Shown in pieces: positions 1 through 44,545 of a DNA stretch of 44,545 nucleotides (the first letter of the stretch is position 1; every line of letters begins with the position of its first letter). The translations under genes and the position numbers were made by a program. The notes below the pieces were generated by a model. It was given only the letters and a program-made list of their open reading frames with translations, did not search any database and was not told the origin of the DNA. The DNA comes from Escherichia phage 6948. The stretch lies in the sequence record OL362272.1; one strand, given 5' to 3'.

Positions 1-300
1 TTGAGCGTACACAATAAACATGCAGCTACAGAGGATGAGGTTGGCATTCTGCATGGTGCTATTACCAAAATCTTCAATAAGAAAGCACAGGCAATACTGG
101 ACACTATAGAAGAAGACCCTGATGCAGCATTACATTTAGTGTCTGGTAAGGATATTGGTGCGATGTGTAAGTGGGTTCTTGATAACGGCATTACCGCCAC
201 ACCTGCTGCACAGCAGGAAGAGTCCAAGTTATCTAAGCGCCTCAAGGCTATCCGAGAGGCATCCAGTGGTAAGATAATTCAATTCACTAAGGAGGATTGA
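1..300 (+). CDS. terminase small subunit, 3' portion (5' end lies outside the window)
   Basis: Open frame runs from window start to TGA at 298-300, overlapping the large-terminase ATG (ATGA). Assignment is by position immediately upstream of the large subunit as in T7 gene 18/19; no diagnostic motif recognised. Confidence 0.45.
   Translation: MSVHNKHAATEDEVGILHGAITKIFNKKAQAILDTIEEDPDAALHLVSGKDIGAMCKWVLDNGITATPAAQQEESKLSKRLKAIREASSGKIIQFTKED
92..114 (+). promoter_or_regulatory. phage-RNAP promoter (inside the small-terminase gene)
   Basis: CAATACTGGACACTATAGAAGAA; matches the window consensus ATTTACYGGACACTATAGAAG except at -17 to -14. Confidence 0.5.
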
Positions 301-3871: not shown

Positions 3872-3894
3872 ATTTACTGGACACTATAGAAGAG
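3872..3894 (+). promoter_or_regulatory. phage-RNAP promoter upstream of tailspike 1
   Basis: ATTTACTGGACACTATAGAAGAG. Confidence 0.75.
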
Positions 3895-3973
3895 GTAAGA
3901 TAGCGCCGTTCTTTTGAGCGGCCTATTACTAGCCAATCTTCATAGGGAGGGTTGGAAAGTAATAGGAGATAGC

Positions 3974-5872
3974 ATGGCTAAATTAACCAAACCTAATACT
4001 GAAGGAATCTTGCATAAAGGACAATCTTTGTATGAGTACCTTGATGCGAGAGTTTTAACATCAAAGCCGTTTGGTGCTGCAGGTGACGCCACTACTGATG
4101 ATACGGAGGTTATAGCTGCTTCATTAAACTCTCAGAAAGCTGTCACAGTCTCAGACGGTGTATTCTCTAGCTCTGGTATTAATAGTAATTACTGTAACTT
4201 AGACGGCAGGGGTAGTGGCGTGCTAAGTCACCGTTCAAGTACAGGTAACTACTTAGTATTTAACAATCTACGTGCAGGTCGCTTAAGTAATATTACGGTA
4301 GAAAGTAATAAGGCGACTGATACAACTCAGGGACAGCAGGTATCCCTTGCTGGTGGAAGTGATGTTACTGTAAGTGACGTTAACTTCTCAAACGTTAAAG
4401 GTACTGGTTTCAGTTTAATCGCATACCCTAATGATGCGCCACCGGATGGACTTATGATTAAAGGCATTCGAGGTAGCTATTCCGGCTATGCTACTAATAA
4501 GGCAGCCGGATGCGTACTTGCTGACTCCTCAGTTAACTCCCTCATAGATAACGTCATTGCTAAGAACTACCCTCAGTTCGGAGCAGTAGAGTTGAAAGGT
4601 ACAGCCAGTTACAACATAGTCAGTAATGTTATAGGGGCAGATTGCCAGCATGTAACTTACAACGGCACTGAAGGGCCAATAGCTCCTTCTAATAACCTTA
4701 TCAATGGGGTGATGGCTAATAACCCTAAGTATGCAGCGGTTGTTGCAGGCAAAGGGAGTACTAACTTAATCTCAGACGTGCTCGTAGATTACTCAACTTC
4801 TGATGCTAGGCAGGCTCATGGTGTTACCGTAGAGGGATCTGATAACGTCATAAATAATGTGCTTATGTCAGGATGTGATGGTACTAACTCTTTAGGACAA
4901 GGGCAGACTGCTACAATTGCACGCTTTATAGGTACAGCTAATAACAACTATGCGTCTGTATTTCCTAGCTACAGTGCTACAGGTGTTATTACTTTCGAAT
5001 CCGGCTCTACCCGTAACTTCGTAGAGGTAAAGCACCCTGGCAGGAGAAACGACATTCTCAGTTCTGCTAGTACTATTGACGGTGCAGCTACTATTGACGG
5101 CACTAATAATAGTAACGTAGTGCACGCACCTGCCTTAGGGCAGTACATAGGTAGTATGTCAGGTAGGTTCGAATGGCGGATTAAGTCCATGTCACTCCCT
5201 TCAGGTGTTCTTACTTCTGCTGATAAGTACAGAATGCTTGGAGATGGTGCTGTGTCATTAGCTGTAGGTGGGGGCACTTCTTCTCAAGTTCGCCTATTTA
5301 CTTCTGATGGTACTTCTCGGACAGTGTCCATCACCAACGGTAACGTGCGTCTTTCTACCAGTAGCACAGGCTATTTGCAGTTAGGTGCTGATGCAATGAC
5401 CCCAGATAGTACTGGTACATACGCATTAGGTTCCGCCAGTCGAGCATGGTCTGGCGGTTTTACTCAAGCAGCATTCACTGTTACCTCAGATGCTCGGTGT
5501 AAAACAGAACCTCTTACTATCTCAGATGCATTACTAGATGCTTGGTCTGAAGTTGACTTTGTGCAGTTTCAGTATTTGGATCGTGTTGAGGAGAAGGGTG
5601 CAGACTCAGCTAGATGGCACTTCGGTATCATCGCTCAGCGAGCTAAGGATGCCTTCGAACGTCACGGTATAGATGCACATCGCTATGGCTTCTTGTGCTT
5701 CGACAGTTGGGATGATGTATACGAGGAAGATGCCAATGGCTCTCGTAAACTGATTACACCAGCAGGTTCCCGCTACGGTATTCGTTACGAGGAAGCACTG
5801 ATATTAGAGGCTGCGTTGATGCGGCGGACTATTAAGCGTATGCAGGAAGCACTAGCTTCCCTGCCTAAGTAA
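3974..5872 (+). CDS. tailspike 1: beta-helix capsule depolymerase with C-terminal intramolecular chaperone (peptidase S74-like) domain
   Basis: 632 aa from ATG 3974 (RBS AGGAG); Ser/Thr/Gly/Asn-rich beta-helix-like repeats; C-terminus TVTS-DARCK...LDAWSEVDFVQFQYLDR...WHFGIIAQ matches the autoproteolytic chaperone module of endosialidase/K5-lyase-type tailspikes. Confidence 0.85.
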   Translation: MAKLTKPNTEGILHKGQSLYEYLDARVLTSKPFGAAGDATTDDTEVIAASLNSQKAVTVSDGVFSSSGINSNYCNLDGRGSGVLSHRSSTGNYLVFNNLRAGRLSNITVESNKATDTTQGQQVSLAGGSDVTVSDVNFSNVKGTGFSLIAYPNDAPPDGLMIKGIRGSYSGYATNKAAGCVLADSSVNSLIDNVIAKNYPQFGAVELKGTASYNIVSNVIGADCQHVTYNGTEGPIAPSNNLINGVMANNPKYAAVVAGKGSTNLISDVLVDYSTSDARQAHGVTVEGSDNVINNVLMSGCDGTNSLGQGQTATIARFIGTANNNYASVFPSYSATGVITFESGSTRNFVEVKHPGRRNDILSSASTIDGAATIDGTNNSNVVHAPALGQYIGSMSGRFEWRIKSMSLPSGVLTSADKYRMLGDGAVSLAVGGGTSSQVRLFTSDGTSRTVSITNGNVRLSTSSTGYLQLGADAMTPDSTGTYALGSASRAWSGGFTQAAFTVTSDARCKTEPLTISDALLDAWSEVDFVQFQYLDRVEEKGADSARWHFGIIAQRAKDAFERHGIDAHRYGFLCFDSWDDVYEEDANGSRKLITPAGSRYGIRYEEALILEAALMRRTIKRMQEALASLPK

Positions 5873-5878
5873 GCAACA

Positions 5879-5901
5879 GGCAGTGCGTAAGCACTGCTTT
5901 T
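5879..5901 (+). terminator. intrinsic terminator between the tailspike genes
   Basis: Stem GGCAGTGC / GCACTGC(T), GTAA loop, then TTTT. Confidence 0.5.
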
Positions 5902-5958
5902 CACGCAACTTTTTCTTAAAGGTTATCATGGTGGTAGCCTTTCAGAAAAGGAGGTTAC

Positions 5959-7671
5959 ATGCTTCAAAGATTAAGTGCTTACTTGGTGAAGTACAAGAGT
6001 AAACTAACAGGTACTATTGAGCGCCTGCTATCTGATAAACTATCGGATACAATAGATGTTGCGGATTTTGGAGTTACTCCATCTTCCAATGACAACAGGC
6101 AAGCACTTCAAGCTGCGTTCAATGCAGTCAGAGTGTTAGGCGGTGGCACTGTATTAGTCACTAAAGCTGGAAAATACAAACTCAGTGGTACTGTTGAGAT
6201 ATTTGCTAATACACACTTCAAGGTGGCTAAAGGTGTAACATTTGTACGTGACTACGAAACAGGAGATACGCTATTCAGATTATCACAAGGGCAAGCTAGT
6301 AATGTAACAGTCAGTGGAGGTATCTATGAAGGCAATGGTCACACTAAGGGAGATACACCTTTTGTAGTATTTGCATCTACTAGTAATAATGATTTGAAGT
6401 TTGAAGGCATAACAGTTAACAATGTAGTGGACTACCACGCCATAGATTTAGCAGATTGGAACAACGTAGTTATTCGTGATTGTAAATTCCTAGGTTTTAA
6501 GAATACAGGCAGTCGTAACTTCTCAGAGGCTATACAGTTAGACCCAGGTCTTATTACAGTTGGTCACTATGTACAGTCAAGTGGTATGCTGGTGGAGAAT
6601 TGCTATGCTGGTCCAAACACAGAATCAGGGTTTGGAGGTTATGGTGCACTAATTGGAAATCACGCCTCAGCTTACGGTGTACAGGACAACAATATCCGTA
6701 TCTTGAATTGCACTACAGATGGTGCTCTCTTTGCAGGTGTACGTGTATTTAACTGGAAAAACTGGACAGTGCGTGGTTGCACATTTAGGAACTCTAATGC
6801 AAGAGGTGTCCATGTTACACCTGTCTCATCTCAGACTAAACCGCAGGGTACTCGACAAGGTAGTATTGTAGATTGCACTTTTGATGGCGTAAGGACACCA
6901 GTGCTAATTGCTGCACCATCTTGGCCTTTTACCGATATTAGTGACATTTGGCATGACCATATTGAAATTTCTAATAATACTATGATCCTCACAGAGGATG
7001 TATCCTATGGTGTAGATGCAAGGTGGTGTAAGAATTTAATTGTAAAAGGTAATACAGGCTCTGGTGGCTTAGGGTTAATCGGTTTACGCTTTGGGACAAA
7101 ATACCACATCGAAGGTAATACTTGGGAAAACGGAAGAGGTAGTGGGATTTGGTTAGGTGAGTCTGATGCTACTACATTCATTGGTACTGGTTTATCAGGA
7201 GAAGGTATACTTAGTCGTAATATCTTCTCTAAATTAGGGCAATATGGTATTCATGTAAACTGCAAGGCTAGCTGTCTAGTGATTAAAGCCAATAATATGA
7301 AGGAAGTATCTACAGCTGAAGCAGGTAGGCACTTCATTAGTATAGACACAGGGGCTAACAACATCCTAGTAGAAGGTAATATTGGAGTAGACGGAGAAAG
7401 CCCTAACAAGCCAAGCCTTGGTATTCGTGTTACTTCTTCTTGTTCCAATATTAAACTCATTGGCAATGATTGCTATGGCACACAGGCGCCTCAGAATAAC
7501 CAAGGAGTTGGTTCTAGTACGGTGATTGTTTATGGGCTAAATGGCAACCCTACAACTTTAGGCGTAGGTGCACCTGTAGGCTCTTTAGCAACTGATATCA
7601 ATGGTTCTGGTGGTAGTACATTGTACGTTAAAGAATCTGGTACATCTGCTCAAGGTTGGGTTGCAAAGTAG
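5959..7671 (+). CDS. tailspike 2: pectate-lyase-like right-handed beta-helix depolymerase
   Basis: 570 aa, RBS AAAGGAGG; N-terminal DVADFGVTPSSNDNRQALQAAF...GGGTVLV resembles the start of pectate-lyase-3/GH28-like phage depolymerases; repetitive NxxVxG/GN turns. Confidence 0.75.
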   Translation: MLQRLSAYLVKYKSKLTGTIERLLSDKLSDTIDVADFGVTPSSNDNRQALQAAFNAVRVLGGGTVLVTKAGKYKLSGTVEIFANTHFKVAKGVTFVRDYETGDTLFRLSQGQASNVTVSGGIYEGNGHTKGDTPFVVFASTSNNDLKFEGITVNNVVDYHAIDLADWNNVVIRDCKFLGFKNTGSRNFSEAIQLDPGLITVGHYVQSSGMLVENCYAGPNTESGFGGYGALIGNHASAYGVQDNNIRILNCTTDGALFAGVRVFNWKNWTVRGCTFRNSNARGVHVTPVSSQTKPQGTRQGSIVDCTFDGVRTPVLIAAPSWPFTDISDIWHDHIEISNNTMILTEDVSYGVDARWCKNLIVKGNTGSGGLGLIGLRFGTKYHIEGNTWENGRGSGIWLGESDATTFIGTGLSGEGILSRNIFSKLGQYGIHVNCKASCLVIKANNMKEVSTAEAGRHFISIDTGANNILVEGNIGVDGESPNKPSLGIRVTSSCSNIKLIGNDCYGTQAPQNNQGVGSSTVIVYGLNGNPTTLGVGAPVGSLATDINGSGGSTLYVKESGTSAQGWVAK

Positions 7672-7682
7672 TAGGAAGTTGA

Positions 7683-7832
7683 ATGCCATTAATCAAATCA
7701 GTTAAGCAAAGTGCTGTACGCCAGAACACAGAAGAACTTATTCAATCAGGACGTGACCCTAAGCAAGCCTATGCGATTGCCAAGGATGTACAACGTCGTG
7801 CTATGAAGAAACCTTCTGCATCTTCTGCGTAA
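7683..7832 (+). CDS. small hypothetical protein
   Basis: 49 aa basic peptide, RBS AGGAAG upstream; not in ORF track (<60 aa). Confidence 0.3.
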   Translation: MPLIKSVKQSAVRQNTEELIQSGRDPKQAYAIAKDVQRRAMKKPSASSA

Positions 7833-7902
7833 GCAGGTTAATATCTTAGTGTACACAAGGGCAGACCTAGGTTTGCTCTTAGTGTAATCCAAAGGAGGTA
7901 AC

Positions 7903-8031
7903 ATGCTGAAAGATGGTTGGGTTTCATATGACCCTACAGACCCTACGAATTGGCTACAGGTTATCGCTATAGCTTGTGCAGGTAGCCTATTGGCTGCCAT
8001 GATGTATTCATTATGGATGTACACAAAGTAA
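7903..8031 (+). CDS. small hydrophobic protein
   Basis: 42 aa, strong RBS AAAGGAGG 7 nt upstream; one predicted TM helix (LQVIAIACAGSLLAAMMYSLW). Confidence 0.35.
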   Translation: MLKDGWVSYDPTDPTNWLQVIAIACAGSLLAAMMYSLWMYTK

Positions 8032-8680
8032 CCAAAGTCAAAATTTTGATGTAGGCGTGTGTCAGCTCTCTCGCCCTCGCCCTCGCCGGGTTGCCCCCAT
8101 AGGGTGGCCTGAGGGAATCCGTCTTCGACGGGCAGGGCTGATGTACTCCTTGGATAGTACAAGGGGGGGCGGAGGGAACGCCTAGGGAGGCCCAGGAATG
8201 GCTTAGTGGTGGACAAGGTGATTACCTTAGTGAAGCCTCTTAGTGCAGTCCTGAGGCCATTCAGGGCCATTCCTGAGCGTTTGACAGGGTGGGAGGGTGT
8301 GGGCTATCTGTTCGTTTCGTTCACTCCGCTTGCGCTACGTTCACTCGCTCACGTGTACCTTAGGTTATTCCTTGATGGATAGCTTAGGTTAGCCTTAGTG
8401 GACTACCTTAGTTAAAGCCTTAGTGCTTCACTTAGTATCAGCTTAGTAGTGTGCCTTAGTAAGTCTTAGTGTCTTCTCTTAGTGATTGCACATGCAAGCA
8501 TGTAAGATGCCATTAGGTCGCGGTCGGTAGACCGCTAAAGAAGAAGTATAGTAATAAGATGCAGTAGGAGGAACACCAGAAACCTAGCCAACCTAGCCTA
8601 TCCTAGCTCTGTATCTATTGCTTTTCCTTAGTCTAACATGTGAGACAACCTAGATTTATCTTAGTGATGATATCTTAGTG

Positions 8681-8709
8681 TTGACAAGGCCATCTCAATA
8701 TAATACTAT
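8681..8709 (+). promoter_or_regulatory. candidate host sigma70 early promoter
   Basis: TTGACA (8681-8686), 17-nt spacer, TACTAT (8704-8709); upstream of the first early ORFs. Confidence 0.3.
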
Positions 8710-8781
8710 TCATCACGTAGGCAGCACTGAGGTGCTTAGTAGCCAGCTAGTAAGGCATACGAAGAGACTAGCGCTTACATT

Positions 8782-8794
8782 GCTCTTTAACAAT
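8782..8794 (+). promoter_or_regulatory. conserved early-region 13-mer GCTCTTTAACAAT (copy 1), candidate RNase III processing element
   Basis: Exact 13-mer occurs three times in the early region; the same motif sits just upstream of gene 0.3 in T7, as recalled. Confidence 0.3.
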
Positions 8795-8810
8795 TTGCTT
8801 AGTGTAACCT

Positions 8811-9032
8811 ATGTATGCCGTGGTTAATTACTTATTGAATGAGGGATTAACTATGACATTAAACAACCGTGAACTATCCGTTCTCTTCACTCTGTTGTGC
8901 TACATGATTCGTAACAACAAATTGCTTACAGATGACGAGTTGGCACTGTATCACCGCTTTCTTAACGAAGGTTGGACCGATACAGTTAATCAACACCGTA
9001 ACATGATAGATGAGTTGAGGGAGGGTAAATAA
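8811..9032 (+). CDS. early hypothetical protein
   Basis: ORF of 73 aa; an internal ATG at 8853 with GAGGGA upstream is an alternative start. Confidence 0.35.
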   Translation: MYAVVNYLLNEGLTMTLNNRELSVLFTLLCYMIRNNKLLTDDELALYHRFLNEGWTDTVNQHRNMIDELREGK

Positions 9033-9256
9033 TGTATCAACATGAGGTATTCTTTGAATCAGCTAGCGAAGCTATTCGCTTCTTTGAGGACATGCTGCGA
9101 AATGGTGTAGGTGTGCATGTACATAGCTTTCTACTAGATTATGACACTGAATATCACCGAGTTACCTTAGTATCTGAGTATGACAACCAAGTCATTACTG
9201 AGTATCTAGGCAGTGAAGATTACGATTACGATGAAGTAATCACGACAAATATCTAA
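9032..9256 (+). CDS. early hypothetical acidic protein
   Basis: 74 aa, RBS GAGGGAGGG; acidic, Tyr/Asp/Glu-rich C-terminus (SEDYDYDEV). Confidence 0.45.
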   Translation: MYQHEVFFESASEAIRFFEDMLRNGVGVHVHSFLLDYDTEYHRVTLVSEYDNQVITEYLGSEDYDYDEVITTNI

Positions 9257-9264
9257 ATTAACTG

Positions 9265-9293
9265 TTGACAGCCACGGCATACAAGGTTACATT
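9265..9293 (+). promoter_or_regulatory. candidate host sigma70 early promoter
   Basis: TTGACA (9265-9270), 17-nt spacer, TACATT (9288-9293). Confidence 0.3.
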
Positions 9294-9326
9294 AAGCATC
9301 AAGACGGCGACGTCTTTAAACATCCC

Positions 9327-9339
9327 GCTCTTTAACAAT
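9327..9339 (+). promoter_or_regulatory. conserved early-region 13-mer GCTCTTTAACAAT (copy 2)
   Basis: Exact repeat; preceded by palindrome AAGACGGCGACGTCTT (9301-9316). Confidence 0.3.
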
Positions 9340-9385
9340 ACGGTTTGTGTCTTGATAGGCTAACTAACTAACTAAGGTAATTATC

Positions 9386-9496
9386 ATGAAAGGTTTAATT
9401 TGTGTAGAACGTATGGTCAATGGTAAACTTGAAATATTACCACTGGAAAACCAATCTAGCTTCAAAGAGTGGTATGGCTGTTTCTCACTGATTTAA
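9386..9496 (+). CDS. small early hypothetical protein
   Basis: 36 aa; preceded by the multi-frame stop string TAACTAACTAACTAA and an A-rich RBS; flanked by inverted repeat CTTGATAGGC (9349) / GCCTATCAAG (9513). Confidence 0.25.
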   Translation: MKGLICVERMVNGKLEILPLENQSSFKEWYGCFSLI

Positions 9497-9538
9497 GGTA
9501 AAGGCTGGCACTAGTCAGCCTATCAAGGCGCAAACCAA

Positions 9539-9551
9539 GCTCTTTAACAAT
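9539..9551 (+). promoter_or_regulatory. conserved early-region 13-mer GCTCTTTAACAAT (copy 3), upstream of the Ocr-like gene
   Basis: Exact repeat about 95 nt upstream of the gene 0.3 start. Confidence 0.3.
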
Positions 9552-9647
9552 TTGGATGGTAGCTTCTTAGTCTGGATAGGTTAAACCTAGGGGATTCTCT
9601 TGAGTCTCCTATAATGTAACCTAACTAACTAAATGAGGATTAATAAC

Positions 9648-10001
9648 ATGGCTATGTCTAATATGACTTACTCTCAGGTTTACAACACCGCTCATGCTGC
9701 ATTAGTTGAACGTATCTGGAATGATGCTATTGATTGTATTGATAACGCACATGATGCAATCCATGATGCGGCGGATAGTGCTGTACCAATCTATTATGCT
9801 GACATCTTCTCCGTGATGGCGAGTGAAGGAATTGATCATTTCTTCGAAGACTCCGGCCTGATGCCAGACACTAAGGATGTAACCGTAGTATTGCAAGCCC
9901 GTATCTATGAGCAACTCACAATTGATCTATGGGAACGTGTTCAGTATATGATTGTTGAATACGTCAACTCCGCCGAATATTTAGAAGAAGAAGAGGAATA
10001 A
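9648..10001 (+). CDS. ocr: Ocr-like DNA mimic, anti-restriction protein (T7 gene 0.3 homologue)
   Basis: 117 aa starting MAMSNMTY..., contains [45 protein letters not shown] and a poly-Glu C-terminus, matching T7 Ocr as I recall it; RBS GAGGA. Confidence 0.85.
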
Positions 10002-10003
10002 GA

Positions 10004-10117
10004 ATGGAAAAGCTATACAACTTCATCTTTTCAGACGGTGTAACCCTGAAGTGTTCCCTGCGTTTCGCACAAATTCGTGAGGAAGTACTAGGCACTACAT
10101 ACAAACTATTTAGCTGA
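10004..10117 (+). CDS. small early hypothetical protein
   Basis: 37 aa; ATG 3 nt after the Ocr stop. Confidence 0.25.
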   Translation: MEKLYNFIFSDGVTLKCSLRFAQIREEVLGTTYKLFS

Positions 10118-11471: not shown

Positions 11472-14099
11472 ATGCAAGACCTACACGCTATTCAACTTCA
11501 ACTTGAAGAAGAAATGTTTAACGGCGGTATCCGTCGCTTTGAAGCGGACCAACAACGCCAGATTGCATCCGGTAATGAATCAGACACGGCATGGAATCGC
11601 CGCTTATTGTCCGAGTTAATCGCGCCAATGGCTGAAGGTATTCAGGCATACAAGGAAGAGTATGAAGGTAAAAGAGGCCGTGCACCGCGTGCATTAGCTT
11701 TCATTAACTGCGTAGAAAACGAAGTGGCAGCATATATCACGATGAAAATCGTTATGGATATGCTGAACACGGATGTAACCTTGCAGGCTATAGCCATGAA
11801 TGTAGCTGACCGCATTGAGGACCAAGTACGTTTTAGCAAGCTGGAAGGTCACGCCGCCAAATACTTTGAGAAAGTTAAGAAGTCACTTAAGGCAAGTAAG
11901 ACTAAATCATATCGCCATGCGCACAACGTAGCGGTCGTGGCTGAGAAGTCAGTAGCTGACCGTGACGCTGATTTCTCTCGCTGGGAGGCATGGCCTAAAG
12001 ACACCTTGCTGCAAATTGGGATGACCTTGCTTGAAATCTTAGAGAATAGCGTATTCTTCAACGGGCAACCTGTCTTCCTCCGCACCTTGCGCACTAATGG
12101 TGGCAAGCATGGTGTTTACTACTTACAGACCAGTGAGCACGTAGGGGAGTGGATTACAGCATTTAAAGAACATGTAGCGCAACTTAGTCCAGCCTATGCT
12201 CCTTGCGTCATCCCTCCGCGTCCGTGGGTATCACCTTTTAACGGCGGTTTCCACACTGAGAAAGTAGCAAGCCGTATTCGTCTGGTAAAAGGAAACCGCG
12301 AACACGTCCGCAAGCTGACCAAAAAGCAAATGCCAGCGGTTTACAAGGCTGTTAACGCTTTGCAGGCGACTAAGTGGCAGGTTAATAAAGAGGTTTTACA
12401 GGTTGTGGAGGACGTTATACGTCTAGACCTCGGCTATGGTGTACCTTCCTTTAAACCACTCATCGACCGTGAGAACAAGCCAGCTAATCCGGTGCCGTTA
12501 GAGTTCCAGCACCTGCGAGGCCGTGAACTGAAAGAAATGCTTACGCCGGAACAATGGCAAGCCTTTATCAACTGGAAAGGTGAATGTACTAAGCTGTACA
12601 CCGCTGAAACTAAGCGCGGAAGCAAATCGGCGGCAACCGTTCGCATGGTTGGTCAGGCCCGTAAATATAGCCAGTTCGACGCAATCTACTTCGTGTATGC
12701 ACTGGACAGCCGCAGCCGTGTATACGCGCAATCTAGCACGCTCTCGCCGCAATCAAACGACTTAGGCAAGGCATTGCTCCGTTTTACCGAAGGGCAGCGT
12801 CTTGATAGCGCTGAGGCGCTTAAGTGGTTTTTGGTGAACGGGGCGAATAACTGGGGTTGGGATAAGAAAACTTTTGACGTGCGCACCTCTAACGTGCTGG
12901 ATGGCGAATTTCAAGACATGTGCCGCGACATTGCAGCCGATCCGCTGACCTTCACTCAATGGGTAAATGCTGATTCCCCTTACGGCTTCCTTGCATGGTG
13001 CTTTGAATATGCGCGTTATCTGGATGCACTGGATGAAGGCACGCAAGACCAATTCATGACGCATCTACCCGTCCATCAAGACGGTAGTTGCTCTGGTATC
13101 CAGCACTATAGCGCGATGTTACGCGATGAAGTAGGTGCGAAAGCAGTAAACCTTAAGCCTTCTGACTTCCCTCAAGATATTTATGGCGCGGTTGCGCAGG
13201 TTGTTATCCAGAAGAATTACGCCTACATGAATGCAGACGATGCAGAGATTTTCACATCTGGAAGCGTCACACTTACAGGTGCAGAACTGCGTAGCATGGC
13301 TAGTGCGTGGGATATGATAGGAATCACTCGCGGATTGACCAAAAAGCCCGTAATGACACTACCTTATGGCAGCACACGTCTAACCTGCCGTGAATCAGTG
13401 ATTGATTATATCGTTGATTTGGAAGAAAAAGAGGCCCAACGAGCTATTGCGGAAGGGCGTACCGCCAATCCTGTACATCCTTTTGATAATGACCGTAAGG
13501 ACAGCCTGACACCTAGTGCAGCTTATAACTATATGACGGCTTTAATCTGGCCTTCTATTTCGGAAGTGGTTAAAGCTCCTATAGTGGCAATGAAAATGAT
13601 TCGTCAGCTTGCCCGTTTCGCAGCTAAAAGGAATGAAGGCTTAGAGTATACCTTGCCTACTGGCTTCATCTTGCAACAAAAGATTATGGCTACCGACATG
13701 CTACGCGTATCCACTTGCTTGATGGGTGAAATCAAGATGAGTCTACAGATTGAGACTGATGTAGTGGATGAAACGGCTATGATGGGCGCTGCTGCTCCTA
13801 ACTTTGTTCACGGGCATGATGCTAGTCATCTCATCCTGACTGTATGTGACCTCGTTGACAAGGGCATTACATCCATCGCAGTCATCCATGATTCTTTCGG
13901 TACTCACGCAGGCCGTACAGCCGATCTACGTGATAGTCTAAGGGCAGAAATGGTGAAGATGTATCAAGGCCGTAATGCCCTGCAAAGCCTGTTAGATGAG
14001 CATGAAGAACGCTGGTTAGTAGACACCGGAATCCAAGTGCCAGAGCAAGGAGAGTTTGACCTTAACGAAATCTTAGTATCTGACTATTGCTTCGCATAA
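11472..14099 (+). CDS. single-subunit DNA-directed RNA polymerase (SP6-type)
   Basis: 875 aa; motifs [31 protein letters not shown] and C-terminal ...YCFA typical of T7/SP6 RNAP; N-terminus [16 protein letters not shown] resembles SP6 RNAP as recalled. Confidence 0.95.
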
Positions 14100-43929: not shown

Positions 43930-44154
43930 ATGATTAACTCCGAACTGGTAGATAGTGGTGTGAAGCTTGCGCCACCTGCACTCGTATCAGGTGGGTACTT
44001 CCTCGGTATCAGTTGGGATAACTGGCTCGTAATTATGACCCTTATTTACACAGTAATGCAAATGGGTTGGTTTATTTATGAGAAAGTCCAGACTATAAAG
44101 AAGAGGAGAAAAGCTAAATGTACTCAGAAGTTGAAAGAGCAGGGTACATCATAA
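43930..44154 (+). CDS. holin (gp17.5-like)
   Basis: 74 aa, RBS AAGGAGG; one TM helix (WLVIMTLIYTVMQMGWFIY) and basic C-terminus KKRRKAK; position after the fibre adaptor. Confidence 0.6.
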   Translation: MINSELVDSGVKLAPPALVSGGYFLGISWDNWLVIMTLIYTVMQMGWFIYEKVQTIKKRRKAKCTQKLKEQGTS

Positions 44155-44545
44155 GAGAAGATGGTGTTATCTTGAGCAAGAAGGGACAACCGATGGTTGG
44201 TGCTATTCGTGAAAGAGGATACCGCACAGTAACATTAAGGATAGATAATAAATCCAAGACTTATAAAGTACACAGGTTGATTGCATGGAAGCATGTGCCG
44301 AACCCTCATAACTATAAGGTTGTTAACCATAAAGACCGCAACCCATCTAATTGCCATAAAGATAACCTAGAGTGGTGCACTCAACAGGAAAACACTATAC
44401 ATGCACACTATGGTTGTCTTGACATACAAGATAAAATAGATGAAGCCAAAGCATTAAGAAGCCAAGGCTGGTCTTATCCTAAAATCGGTAAATACTTTGG
44501 GTTAGACCATAAGACTGTTTGGTATTGGATTAATGGGAGAAGAAC
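44118..44545 (+). CDS. HNH homing endonuclease (3' end outside the window)
   Basis: ATG 44118, open to window end; HRLIAW...VNHKDRNPSNCHKDNLEWCTQQENTIH is an HNH-type motif; start overlaps the holin 3' end in another frame. Confidence 0.7.
   Translation, partial: MYSEVERAGYIIREDGVILSKKGQPMVGAIRERGYRTVTLRIDNKSKTYKVHRLIAWKHVPNPHNYKVVNHKDRNPSNCHKDNLEWCTQQENTIHAHYGCLDIQDKIDEAKALRSQGWSYPKIGKYFGLDHKTVWYWINGRR

What the first reader, a model, noticed from the sequence alone, without database searches (positions are those of the whole stretch)
7850..8815. Genome terminus: heptamer-repeat arrays flanking a GC-rich block, implying a permuted assembly
About 19 CTTAGT(G) repeats and a GC-rich, inverted-repeat-containing block (8040-8350) lie in the only long non-coding stretch, between the last late genes and the first early genes. 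T7-like genomes have short-repeat arrays next to their direct terminal repeats at the concatemer junction. The physical ends and terminal repeat therefore probably lie within roughly 8040-8700, and the window starts mid-genome in the small-terminase gene.
Basis: partly seen in the sequence, partly recalled or inferred. Interest (0 to 1): 0.5.

Follow-up and report, generated by a model that had tools for sequence, protein, structure and literature searches.

The report
Collapsed terminal repeat of K1-5-like phage
This stretch is where the two ends of a K1-5/SP6-like (T7-supergroup) phage chromosome meet, with the terminal repeat present once because the assembly was circularised; it is a well-known feature and only the job of its short repeats is still unclear.

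Summary
There are 18 exact CTTAGT copies on the + strand between 7845 and 8803, against about 0.4 expected and none on the - strand, plus two CTTAGG variants. The 61% G+C block is the G+C-richest stretch of the genome.

The window is a complete Vectrevirus genome, about 98% identical to phage 6949. It is circularly closed and rotated to begin at the first codon of the small-terminase gene.

Phage K1-5 has an exact 234-bp direct terminal repeat. Its left end maps to window 8071 and its repeat ends at 8306. SP6, K1E, phD2B and several other linear records give 8067-8071 and 8305-8306. The window holds one copy only, so this is a concatemer junction with the repeat collapsed.

Two boundary modules are nearly invariant from E. 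coli to Klebsiella and Lelliottia phages, while the repeat interior diverges. The right boundary coincides with ATCTGTT, the T7 RNA polymerase class II pause core, placed as in T7.

The repeat layout mirrors T7: two copies upstream, three inside the repeat, and an array just after it. Repeat cores are conserved (86% against 40% for spacers in distant relatives).

Nothing here is new; the function of the short repeats remains open. Interest is low.

The parts
7683..7832 (+). Homologue of K1-5 gene 48 (49 aa), the second-to-last late gene. Context only.
   Evidence: phrog_2423, E = 1e-23. Same length and position as K1-5 gene 48.
7845..7883 (+). Two upstream CTTAGTG copies (7845-7850 and 7878-7883). 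They are the counterpart of the two T7 copies upstream of the right terminal repeat.
   Evidence: Same two copies at the same offsets in K1-5, K1E, SP6 and GRNsp03.
7903..8031 (+). Homologue of K1-5 gene 49 (42 aa, hydrophobic, preceded by AGGAGG). It is the last gene before the repeat and lies inside the finding's coordinates.
   Evidence: Read directly. The K1-5 right end carries the same ORF. No Pfam or PHROG hit.
8040..8070 (+). Conserved module just outside the left-end cut: AAAATTTTGATGTAGGCGTGTGTCAGCTCTC.
   Evidence: Nearly invariant in 10 Molineuxvirinae genomes, including Salmonella, Citrobacter and Klebsiella phages. Blastn hits to Klebsiella, Proteus and Lelliottia phages are confined to 8040-8115. 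Also present in phD2B and K22PH164C1.
8071..8306 (.). Equivalent of the direct terminal repeat (236 bp, 61% G+C), present once. The left boundary could be 8067, 8069 or 8071, because the relatives' ends differ in 2-nt steps within CTCTCTC. The right boundary is 8305/8306.
   Evidence: K1-5 exact 234-bp repeat: base 1 = 8071, last base = 8306. SP6, K1E, EEc2/EEc4, VEc3, Mt1B1_P10, AAPEc6 and Sem2 agree. Single copy in the window.
8070..8104 (+). Conserved module just inside the left end: (CTCGCC)x3, then GGGTTG, then CCCCCATAGGG. The CCCCCATAGGG motif starts 24 nt from the end. T7 has CCCCCATAGGGGG starting 26 nt from its left end.
   Evidence: TRF, alignment, T7 left end.
8202..8244 (+). Three CTTAGTG copies inside the repeat (8202, 8226, 8239).
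   Evidence: T7 also has three CCTAAAG copies inside its repeat.
8281..8318 (+). Conserved right-boundary module: TTGACAGGGTGGGAGGGTGTGGGCTA | TCTGTTCGTTTC.
   Evidence: 85% identity to distant relatives, against 36% for the adjacent repeat interior. GTGGGCTATCTGTT is invariant in the 10 aligned genomes.
8306..8312 (+). ATCTGTT, the core of the class II pause/termination signal of T7-type RNA polymerases (the 'CJ' site). It straddles the right boundary of the repeat and is preceded by T, as the signal requires.
   Evidence: Only + strand copy in the window. In T7 it sits at 161-167, directly after the 160-bp repeat. Present at the same place in SP6, K1E, K1-5, phD2B, IME184 and others. Signal properties from 10.1101/2021.01.11.426313 and 10.64898/2026.02.12.705533.
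8359..8483 (+). Tight array of 10 short repeats: 8 CTTAGT and 2 CTTAGG, all in one orientation. The eight exact copies are spaced 10-13 bp apart (mean 12). This is the counterpart of the T7 array next to its left repeat.
   Evidence: Core columns 94% identical against 64% for spacers; 86% against 40% in distant relatives (alignment).
8520..8535 (+). Conserved small hairpin GCGGTC-GGTA-GACCGC. Function unknown.
   Evidence: RNA fold of 8484-8560 gives z = -2.55. Identical in the Klebsiella phages and in PST_H2.
8627..8803 (+). Five scattered CTTAGT copies (8627, 8660, 8674, 8735, 8798). Two of them abut the -35 hexamer of the first early promoter.
   Evidence: family D15.
8681..8709 (+). First host-type (sigma-70) early promoter candidate: TTGACA, 17 nt, TACTAT.
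   Evidence: 10 of 12 matches. It is a consensus match only.
8782..8794 (+). GCTCTTTAACAAT, identical to the E. coli rrn boxA antitermination element, in the leader of gene 1. Two more copies lie at 9327 and 9539.
   Evidence: Three copies against 0.13 expected. rrnB boxA sequence in PMC2176067 and PMC2724277. Conserved in K1-5, SP6, K1E and IME184.
8853..9032 (+). Homologue of K1-5 gene 1, the first early gene. It marks the right limit of the non-coding region.
   Evidence: phrog_9275, E = 3e-39. K1-5 gene 1 lies at 781-960.
1..300 (+). Small-terminase gene (99 aa, homologue of K1-5 gene 39). The window begins at its first codon.
   Evidence: PF11123 E = 3e-16 and phrog_891 E = 1e-25. Closure of the circle shown.

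Best explanation
The region is the concatemer junction of a Vectrevirus (K1-5/SP6-like, T7-supergroup) phage.

Layout. The right unique end (genes 48 and 49) is followed by a single copy of the roughly 236-bp direct terminal repeat (8071-8306). After it comes the left unique end: the short-repeat array, host-type early promoters with boxA leaders, and gene 1. In virions the repeat should be present at both ends, giving DNA of about 44.78 kb. The assembly collapsed it to one copy, closed the circle and was rotated to start at the small-terminase gene.

Mechanism, inferred from T7/T3 biology.
- Replication yields head-to-tail concatemers with one repeat per junction.
- The T7-type terminase (window 1-300 and 297-2198) makes sequence-specific cuts at the two conserved boundary modules (about 8040-8104 and 8281-8318).
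- The repeat is duplicated by DNA synthesis, so each genome receives two copies.
- Phage RNA polymerase arriving from the late genes pauses at ATCTGTT (8306-8312), exactly at the right boundary. This helps to start maturation there.

Short repeats. The one-orientation CTTAGTG copies are most likely binding or positioning sites for a phage-encoded packaging or maturation factor. The small terminase is the obvious candidate. In the packaging direction assumed for T7 (right end first), the array would be met just before the terminal cut. This last step is the least certain.
For: Shown here:
- K1-5 has an exact 234-bp terminal repeat. Its base 1 aligns to window 8071 and its last base to 8306. The K1-5 right end plus left end reproduces the window's order, gene 49 - repeat - array.
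- SP6, K1E and phD2B repeats begin and end at the same conserved sequences. At least eight linear database records start at 8067-8071 or stop at 8305-8306.
- There is one repeat copy in the window, and the circle closes.
- The window encodes T7-type terminase subunits and RNA polymerase.
- The boundary modules are conserved while the repeat interior diverges.
- ATCTGTT sits at the boundary as in T7.
- No phage promoter lies in 3890-10110, and no convincing terminator lies between the late promoter at 3875 and the repeat. Late transcripts should therefore reach it.
- The repeat layout matches T7, and the repeat cores are under purifying selection.

From the literature:
- Concatemers carry one repeat and the second is synthesised. 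Short-read assemblers drop one copy and place the repeat mid-contig (PMC10438801; PMC5923468).
- ATCTGTT is the class II signal found at the T7 concatemer junction.
- The terminal repeat of an SP6-like phage was confirmed with Bal31 digestion and run-off sequencing (PMC4837284).
Against: - No reads or virion DNA are available, so the ends of this particular phage are inferred, not observed.
- Published ends of relatives differ by 2-4 nt at the left. The UAB_Phi78 record annotates its repeat about 15 nt further left and ending about 10 nt earlier. Single-nucleotide precision is therefore not warranted.
- The roles of the polymerase pause and of the short repeats are extrapolated from T7. To my knowledge they have not been tested in any SP6/K1-5-like phage.
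- More distant relatives keep the cut-site modules but change the repeat motif: CCATAGTG in K22PH164C1, CATGATG in phD2B. Whatever reads the repeats is therefore not the same specificity that reads the cut sites.
- K22PH164C1 has ATCTGTC rather than ATCTGTT.
Confidence: 0.93

Rival explanations
1. The short-repeat array and the G+C-rich block form a replication origin. The CTTAGT copies would be iterons for an initiator protein.
For: The repeats are direct, in one orientation, at roughly helical spacing and in a non-coding region. In T7, secondary origins lie near both genome ends (own knowledge).
Against: T7-type origins depend on a phage promoter followed by an A+T-rich stretch. No phage promoter lies between 3890 and 10110. 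The block is G+C-rich. The genome boundaries of relatives map exactly onto the block.
Confidence: 0.04
2. The short repeats are regulatory sites for early transcription or for genome entry, not packaging signals. For example, they could bind a host or ejected phage protein at the leading end of the DNA. This reading is compatible with the terminus interpretation.
For: Two copies abut the -35 hexamer of the first early promoter. 7841-7863 resembles 8670-8692 (families D7 and D15). The array lies in the first 420 bp of the end that, in T7, enters the cell first (own knowledge). Heptamer-like sequences also surround the T7 early promoters.
Against: Copies also lie inside the repeat and upstream of it at the right genome end, far from any early promoter. 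No candidate binding protein is known.
Confidence: 0.15
3. The short repeats have no sequence-specific reader. They would be a by-product of slippage or gene conversion at the genome end, or act only through DNA shape.
For: The motif differs between genera while the array persists. Copy number varies between relatives. To my knowledge no function has been assigned to the T7 arrays.
Against: In relatives with about 25% overall divergence here, core positions are 86% identical against 40% for spacers, and individual copies stay at fixed positions. That pattern indicates selection on the cores rather than recent amplification.
Confidence: 0.15
4. The region encodes proteins: the ORFs at 8057-8185, 8206-8382 and 8678-8827 on the + strand, or 7746-8270 on the - strand.
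For: The ORFs exist. Some deposited relatives annotate 'hypothetical proteins' over the repeat.
Against: All have GTG starts or lie on the strand opposite to every real gene. The repeat interior shows many indels and low identity between relatives, while the non-coding boundary modules are conserved. K1-5 and SP6 annotate no gene here.
Confidence: 0.02

Closest known systems
Direct terminal repeat and concatemer junction of phage K1-5 (AY370674), with those of SP6 and K1E
   Same: Same element. 7600-9300 is 92% identical to K1-5 over the aligned part. The boundary sequences, the three internal repeat copies, the post-repeat array, the promoters, boxA and the flanking genes 48/49 and 1/2 all match.
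   Different: The window carries one copy instead of two, because it is a circularised and rotated assembly. It is 236 bp against 234 bp, with a few substitutions in the interior. SP6 (174 bp) and K1E (288 bp) differ mainly in the repeat interior.
Phage T7 concatemer junction: 160-bp terminal repeat, flanking arrays of CCTAAAG short repeats, and the CJ class II pause site
   Same: Same architecture. Two repeat copies lie upstream, three inside the repeat and an array just after it, all in one orientation with 12-13-bp spacing. ATCTGTT sits at the right boundary. CCCCCATAGGG lies about 25 nt from the left end. The terminase and RNA polymerase are homologous.
   Different: The repeat motif differs (CCTTAGTG against CCTAAAG), and apart from the short motifs the sequences are unrelated. 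The window has no phage promoters next to the junction, whereas T7 has phiOR and phiOL. The repeat ends one base later relative to ATCTGTT.
Phage lambda cos site (cosQ-cosN-cosB)
   Same: A working analogy only. A terminase cut site is accompanied by short accessory sites that position terminase or trigger the terminal cut (own knowledge).
   Different: Lambda makes cohesive ends rather than a duplicated terminal repeat. There is no sequence or protein-family relationship, and no RNA polymerase pause is involved. This is not a membership claim.

Membership tests
T7-supergroup genome terminus (short exact direct terminal repeat at a concatemer junction) | Virion DNA carries the same 150-300-bp sequence at both ends | not testable with these tools
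   Only one assembled copy is present and no reads are available. Relatives do show it: K1-5 234 bp, SP6 174 bp, K1E 288 bp and T7 160 bp, all exact.
T7-supergroup genome terminus (short exact direct terminal repeat at a concatemer junction) | The sequence is homologous to, and co-linear with, the terminal repeats of relatives that are deposited as linear genomes with a terminal repeat (confirmed experimentally for the SP6 group) | tested here: met
   K1-5 bases 1-234 align to window 8071-8306. The boundary sequences are identical in K1-5, SP6, K1E and phD2B.
T7-supergroup genome terminus (short exact direct terminal repeat at a concatemer junction) | It lies between the last late gene and the first early gene of a co-linear, single-strand gene map | tested here: met
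   Tail-spike genes and the gene 48 and 49 homologues lie upstream. Host-type promoters and the gene 1 and 2 homologues lie downstream.
T7-supergroup genome terminus (short exact direct terminal repeat at a concatemer junction) | T7-type small and large terminase subunits are encoded | tested here: met
   PF11123 (E = 3e-16) and PF22530 (E = 2e-35). PHROG terminase families score up to E = 9e-241.
T7-supergroup genome terminus (short exact direct terminal repeat at a concatemer junction) | A single-subunit phage RNA polymerase is encoded, and its class II pause core ATCTGTT sits at the right boundary of the repeat | tested here: met
   RNA polymerase at 11472-14099 (PF00940, PF14700). ATCTGTT at 8306-8312 is the only + strand copy. 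T7 has it at 161-167. Pausing itself was not tested.
T7-supergroup genome terminus (short exact direct terminal repeat at a concatemer junction) | Arrays of one-orientation short repeats lie next to and within the repeat | tested here: met
   18 CTTAGT copies on the + strand and none on the - strand, P about 1e-23. The layout parallels T7.
Headful (pac-type, circularly permuted) packaging | P22/T4-type terminase and no fixed ends in relatives | tested here: not met
   The terminase is T7-type. Many relatives share the same fixed ends.
rrn-type boxA antitermination element (noticed in passing) | Sequence TGCTCTTTAACAA in a transcribed leader downstream of a host-type promoter | tested here: met
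   Exact match at 8781-8794, 72 nt after the -10 hexamer of the promoter at 8681-8709. Further copies lie at 9327 and 9539. Binding of Nus factors was not tested.

The most novel reading that the evidence does not exclude
The one-orientation CTTAGTG arrays, and their CCTAAAG, CCATAGTG and CATGATG counterparts in other Autographiviridae, could be a co-evolving protein-binding array that controls the end of packaging or the duplication of the terminal repeat. For example, it could be a wrap site for the small-terminase ring that halts the motor just before the terminal cut, as cosQ does in lambda. That would give a function to repeats first described, as I recall, in the 1983 T7 genome sequence and, to my knowledge, never assigned a function.
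Probability: 0.25. Interest if true: 0.5.

Novelty: already known. Interest (0 to 1): 0.15.

Why it matters
Practical value. The deposited orientation hides the true chromosome ends. The virion DNA should run from about 8071, through the window end and start, to 8306. It should carry a second 236-bp repeat and total about 44.78 kb. This matters for annotation, for comparative genomics and for any engineering or rebooting of the phage.

Biological value. There is nothing new at the level of kind. The comparison does define two short boundary modules conserved across Molineuxvirinae. It also shows selection on the short-repeat cores while the motif changes between genera. That makes the old question of what these repeats do easy to test in a K1-5-like phage.

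Tried and rejected
- Rfam scan of 7600-9700 at E up to 1: no match.
- Coding potential of the region: only unconserved GTG-start or antisense ORFs.
- Intrinsic terminators in 7600-9800: none. Between the late promoter at 3875 and the repeat: none convincing.
- Phage promoters next to the junction, as T7 has with phiOR and phiOL: none. The nearest are at 3875 and 10111.
- Structure of the repeat as single-stranded DNA: only weakly better than shuffles, z = -2.3 and -1.8. I therefore do not claim a specific hairpin intermediate.
- RNA folds around the three GCTCTTTAACAAT copies, to test for RNase III-type hairpins: not better than shuffles. The motif turned out to be boxA instead.
- Whether small-terminase divergence tracks the repeat motif: 79% identity in SP6 and Klebsiella phages with CTTAGT, 70% in phD2B with CATGATG, 67% in K22PH164C1 with CCATAGTG. 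There are too few motif classes to conclude anything.
- Literature: the primary papers on the SP6 and K1-5 genomes are not in the held library. Searches for the T7 short-repeat arrays returned nothing useful. Statements about T7 packaging direction, hairpin intermediates and the in vivo role of the pause site therefore rest on my own knowledge.
- UAB_Phi78: its annotated repeat is shifted about 15 nt relative to SP6, and the current record lacks the right copy. I treat this as imprecision, not as a different terminus.
Full report
**What is in the sequence**

The window reads like a T7-supergroup phage. All long ORFs lie on the + strand. It encodes a single-subunit RNA polymerase at 11472-14099, a T7-type small terminase at 1-300 and a large terminase at 297-2198.

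Between 7845 and 8803 there are 18 exact CTTAGT copies, all on the + strand and none on the - strand. The density elsewhere in the window predicts 0.41 copies, which gives a Poisson P of about 1e-23. Twelve copies continue with G. Two CTTAGG variants lie at 8359 and 8383.

The copies are distributed as follows:
- two upstream (7845, 7878);
- three inside the G+C-rich block (8202, 8226, 8239);
- a tight array of ten at 8359-8483, whose eight exact CTTAGT copies are spaced 10-13 bp apart (TRF period 23-24);
- five scattered among the early promoter region (8627-8803).

The block at 8071-8306 is 61% G+C against 45.1% for the genome. The G+C-richest 236-bp window of the whole sequence starts at 8070. 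Inverted repeats exist but are modest. Single-strand folding is only slightly better than shuffles.

Two corrections to the observation:
- 7903-8031 is a real small gene, the homologue of K1-5 gene 49. The non-coding stretch is therefore 8032-8852.
- The ORFs inside that stretch are unconserved GTG-start or antisense frames.

**Identity of the genome and its orientation**

Megablast places the window in the genus Vectrevirus. It is about 98% identical to Escherichia phage 6949 and 96-97% identical to EEc2, EEc4 and several 'Vectrevirus' records.

Joining the window end to its start gives an uninterrupted alignment to K1-5 across the join. The window is therefore a closed, complete genome.

Position 1 is the first codon of the small-terminase gene, which is 99 aa like K1-5 gene 39. 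Several database records are oriented the same way, with the small terminase at 1-297, 1-288 or 30-326. The 'permutation' is thus a circularised assembly rotated by convention.

**Mapping the physical ends by homology**

The K1-5 record (AY370674) is linear and carries an exact 234-bp direct terminal repeat.
- Its base 1 (TCGCCCTCGCC...) aligns to window 8071.
- The last base of its repeat (...GTGGGCTA) aligns to window 8306.
- Its right unique end (gene 49 ... AAAATTTTGATGTAGGCGTGTGTCAGCTCTC) matches the window up to 8070.
- Its left unique continuation (TCTGTTC...) matches the window from 8307.

SP6 (174 bp), K1E (288 bp) and Lelliottia phage phD2B (262 bp, annotated) have repeats that begin and end in the same sequences. 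The left ends differ in 2-nt steps inside CTCTCTC, equivalent to window 8067, 8069 or 8071. The right end always falls after the A of CTATCTGTT.

Other linear records start at 8069-8070 (EEc2, EEc4, VEc3, Mt1B1_P10) or stop at 8305-8306 (AAPEc6, Sem2).

For the SP6-like phage UAB_Phi78, terminal repeats were demonstrated with Bal31 digestion and run-off sequencing (PMC4837284). Its current record places the boundaries 10-15 nt differently and lacks the right copy. I therefore do not claim single-base precision.

The repeat sequence occurs once in the window. This is what is expected when an assembler collapses the two terminal copies. [quoted passage not shown]

**Anatomy from comparison**

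I aligned the junctions of ten Molineuxvirinae: Vectrevirus, Zindervirus and unclassified Klebsiella phages. The alignment shows two nearly invariant modules separated by a fast-evolving interior.
- The left module spans the left cut: AAAATTTTGATRTAGGCGTGTGTCAGCTCTC | TCGCCCTCGCCCTCGCCGGGTTGYCCCCATAGGG (8040-8104). It is the only part of the region that blastn still finds in Klebsiella, Proteus and Lelliottia phages.
- The right module is TTGACAGGGTGKGAGGGYGTGGGCTA | TCTGTTCGTTT (8281-8318). It is 85% identical to the four most distant genomes, against 36% for the adjacent interior.

ATCTGTT at 8306-8312 is the only + strand copy in the window. It is the strictly conserved core of the class II pause/termination signal of T7 RNA polymerase, whose natural example is the T7 concatemer junction site. 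In T7 it lies at 161-167, directly after the 160-bp repeat. Here it is preceded by T, which satisfies the stated context rule.

A second motif is shared with T7. CCCCCATAGGG starts 24 nt from the left end here, and CCCCCATAGGGGG starts 26 nt from the left end in T7.

**The short repeats**

Relative to ATCTGTT, the copies lie at:
- window: -461, -428 | -104, -80, -67 | +88 to +172 (array), then scattered;
- T7 (CCTAAAG): -266, -237 | -143, -119, -100 | +15 to +172.

All copies are in one orientation in both phages. K1-5, K1E, SP6, GRNsp03, CrRp3, IME184 and K44PH129C1 show the same plan with CTTAGT.

Within the array, core columns are 94% identical to the window against 64% for spacers. In the four distant genomes the figures are 86% and 40% (Mann-Whitney P about 1e-9). 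One caveat applies: the cores help to anchor the alignment, which inflates the contrast somewhat.

More distant relatives keep the boundary modules but use another motif:
- CCATAGTG in Klebsiella phage K22PH164C1, which also has CCTGTGGATAAC repeats inside its repeat and ATCTGTC at the boundary;
- CATGATG in phD2B.

The arrays are therefore maintained by selection, but their sequence co-evolves with something other than the cut-site specificity.

**How it most likely works**

Shown here:
- the position and single copy of the repeat;
- the conserved boundary modules;
- the pause core at the boundary;
- the T7-type packaging and transcription genes;
- selection on the repeat cores;
- no phage promoter between 3890 and 10110, and no convincing terminator between the late promoter at 3875 and the repeat, so late transcripts should run into the junction.

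Inferred from T7/T3 biology (literature, and my own knowledge of the T7 packaging literature):
- Concatemers carry one repeat per junction.
- Terminase cuts at the two boundaries and the repeat is duplicated by DNA synthesis.
- RNA polymerase paused at the junction site promotes maturation.
- Packaging runs from the right end to the left end. The motor therefore meets the array just before the terminal cut at the left end.

I propose that the array binds or positions a phage packaging factor, most plausibly the small-terminase oligomer. I give this last step only about 0.25-0.3.

Rivals:
- A replication origin is unlikely, because there is no phage promoter and the block is G+C-rich.
- An entry or early-transcription role is compatible with the terminus reading.
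- 'No specific reader' cannot be excluded.

**The right third of the finding**

8600-8815 is the early control region rather than the terminus. It contains a sigma-70-type promoter candidate at 8681-8709. It also contains, at 8782-8794, a 13-mer identical to the E. coli rrn boxA antitermination element. The 13-mer recurs at 9327 and 9539 (three copies against 0.13 expected; boxA sequence). It is conserved in K1-5, SP6, K1E and a Klebsiella phage.

**Comparison with what is known, and verdict**

This is the same element as the terminal repeat and concatemer junction of K1-5, SP6 and K1E, and it has the same architecture as the T7 junction. All defining features that can be tested on sequence are met. 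The presence of two copies on virion DNA cannot be tested here.

The feature is already known. The only open biology is the function of the short repeats. Interest is 0.15.

Noticed in passing
window 8782-8794, 9327-9339, 9539-9551 (+ strand): There are three exact copies of GCTCTTTAACAAT (0.13 expected by chance). The sequence is identical to the E. coli rrn boxA antitermination element. The first two lie shortly downstream of sigma-70-like promoters at 8681-8709 and 9265-9293. The copies are conserved in K1-5 (3), Mt1B1_P10 (3), SP6 (2), K1E and Klebsiella phage IME184. This suggests that host Nus factors make early host-polymerase transcription resistant to termination.
   Followed up: partly
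window about 44080-44545, running into position 3: An ORF with an HNH_3 endonuclease domain plus a helix-turn-helix lies in a roughly 509-bp insertion relative to K1-5, between the gene 38 (holin) and gene 39 (small terminase) homologues. Its stop codon spans the window's end and start (..AC|TTGA), overlapping the TTG start of the small-terminase gene. It is probably a homing endonuclease.
   Followed up: partly
window 1-3; database records: The window begins exactly at the first codon of the small-terminase gene. Several public Molineuxvirinae records are rotated the same way, with the small terminase at 1-297, 1-288, 1-282 or 30-326. In all of them the true terminal repeat lies about 8 kb into the record and is unannotated.
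   Followed up: yes
window 8520-8535: The small hairpin GCGGTC-GGTA-GACCGC, within AAGATGCCATTAGGTCGCGGTCGGTAGACCGCTAAAG, is conserved almost unchanged in Klebsiella phages IME184 and K44PH129C1 and in Salmonella phage PST_H2. The fold of 8484-8560 has z = -2.55. Its function is unknown.
   Followed up: partly
window 8581-8607: A second short tandem repeat, AACCTAGCC in about 2.8 copies (CCTAGC cores), lies between the CTTAGT array and the first early promoter.
   Followed up: no
window 7841-7863 and 8670-8692: The sequence around the first upstream repeat copy (ATATCTTAGTGTACACAAGGGCA) is 87% identical to the -35 region of the first early promoter (ATATCTTAGTGTTGACAAGGCCA). It may be a decayed duplicate of the promoter region at the opposite genome end.
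   Followed up: no
window 8282-8287: A perfect TTGACA hexamer is conserved in nearly all relatives 18 bp upstream of the repeat's right boundary. No acceptable -10 hexamer follows in the scan. A 2026 preprint reports that the T7 junction site can act as an E. coli promoter, through a different motif that is not conserved here.
   Followed up: partly
loci L021 (Klebsiella phage K22PH164C1) and L019/L020 (Lelliottia phage phD2B): Distant Molineuxvirinae keep the two cut-site modules but replace CTTAGTG by CCATAGTG (K22PH164C1) or CATGATG (phD2B). K22PH164C1 also has about eight CTGTGGRTA repeats and long G runs inside its repeat, and ATCTGTC instead of ATCTGTT at the boundary.
   Followed up: partly
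locus L017/L018 (UAB_Phi78, GU595417.2): The current record annotates its terminal repeat at 1-180, starting about 15 nt before the SP6-type left end and stopping about 10 nt before the conserved right boundary. The record no longer carries the right-hand copy. The deposited ends are probably imprecise.
   Followed up: partly
window 95, 2200, 3875, 14194, 16712, 21653, 22116, 23262, 31554 and others (+ strand): Twelve phage-promoter-like sites (TACYGGACACTATAG and close variants) lie on the + strand, against about 1 expected. None lies between 3890 and 10110. Unlike T7, this phage therefore has no phage promoter adjacent to either side of the junction.
   Followed up: partly
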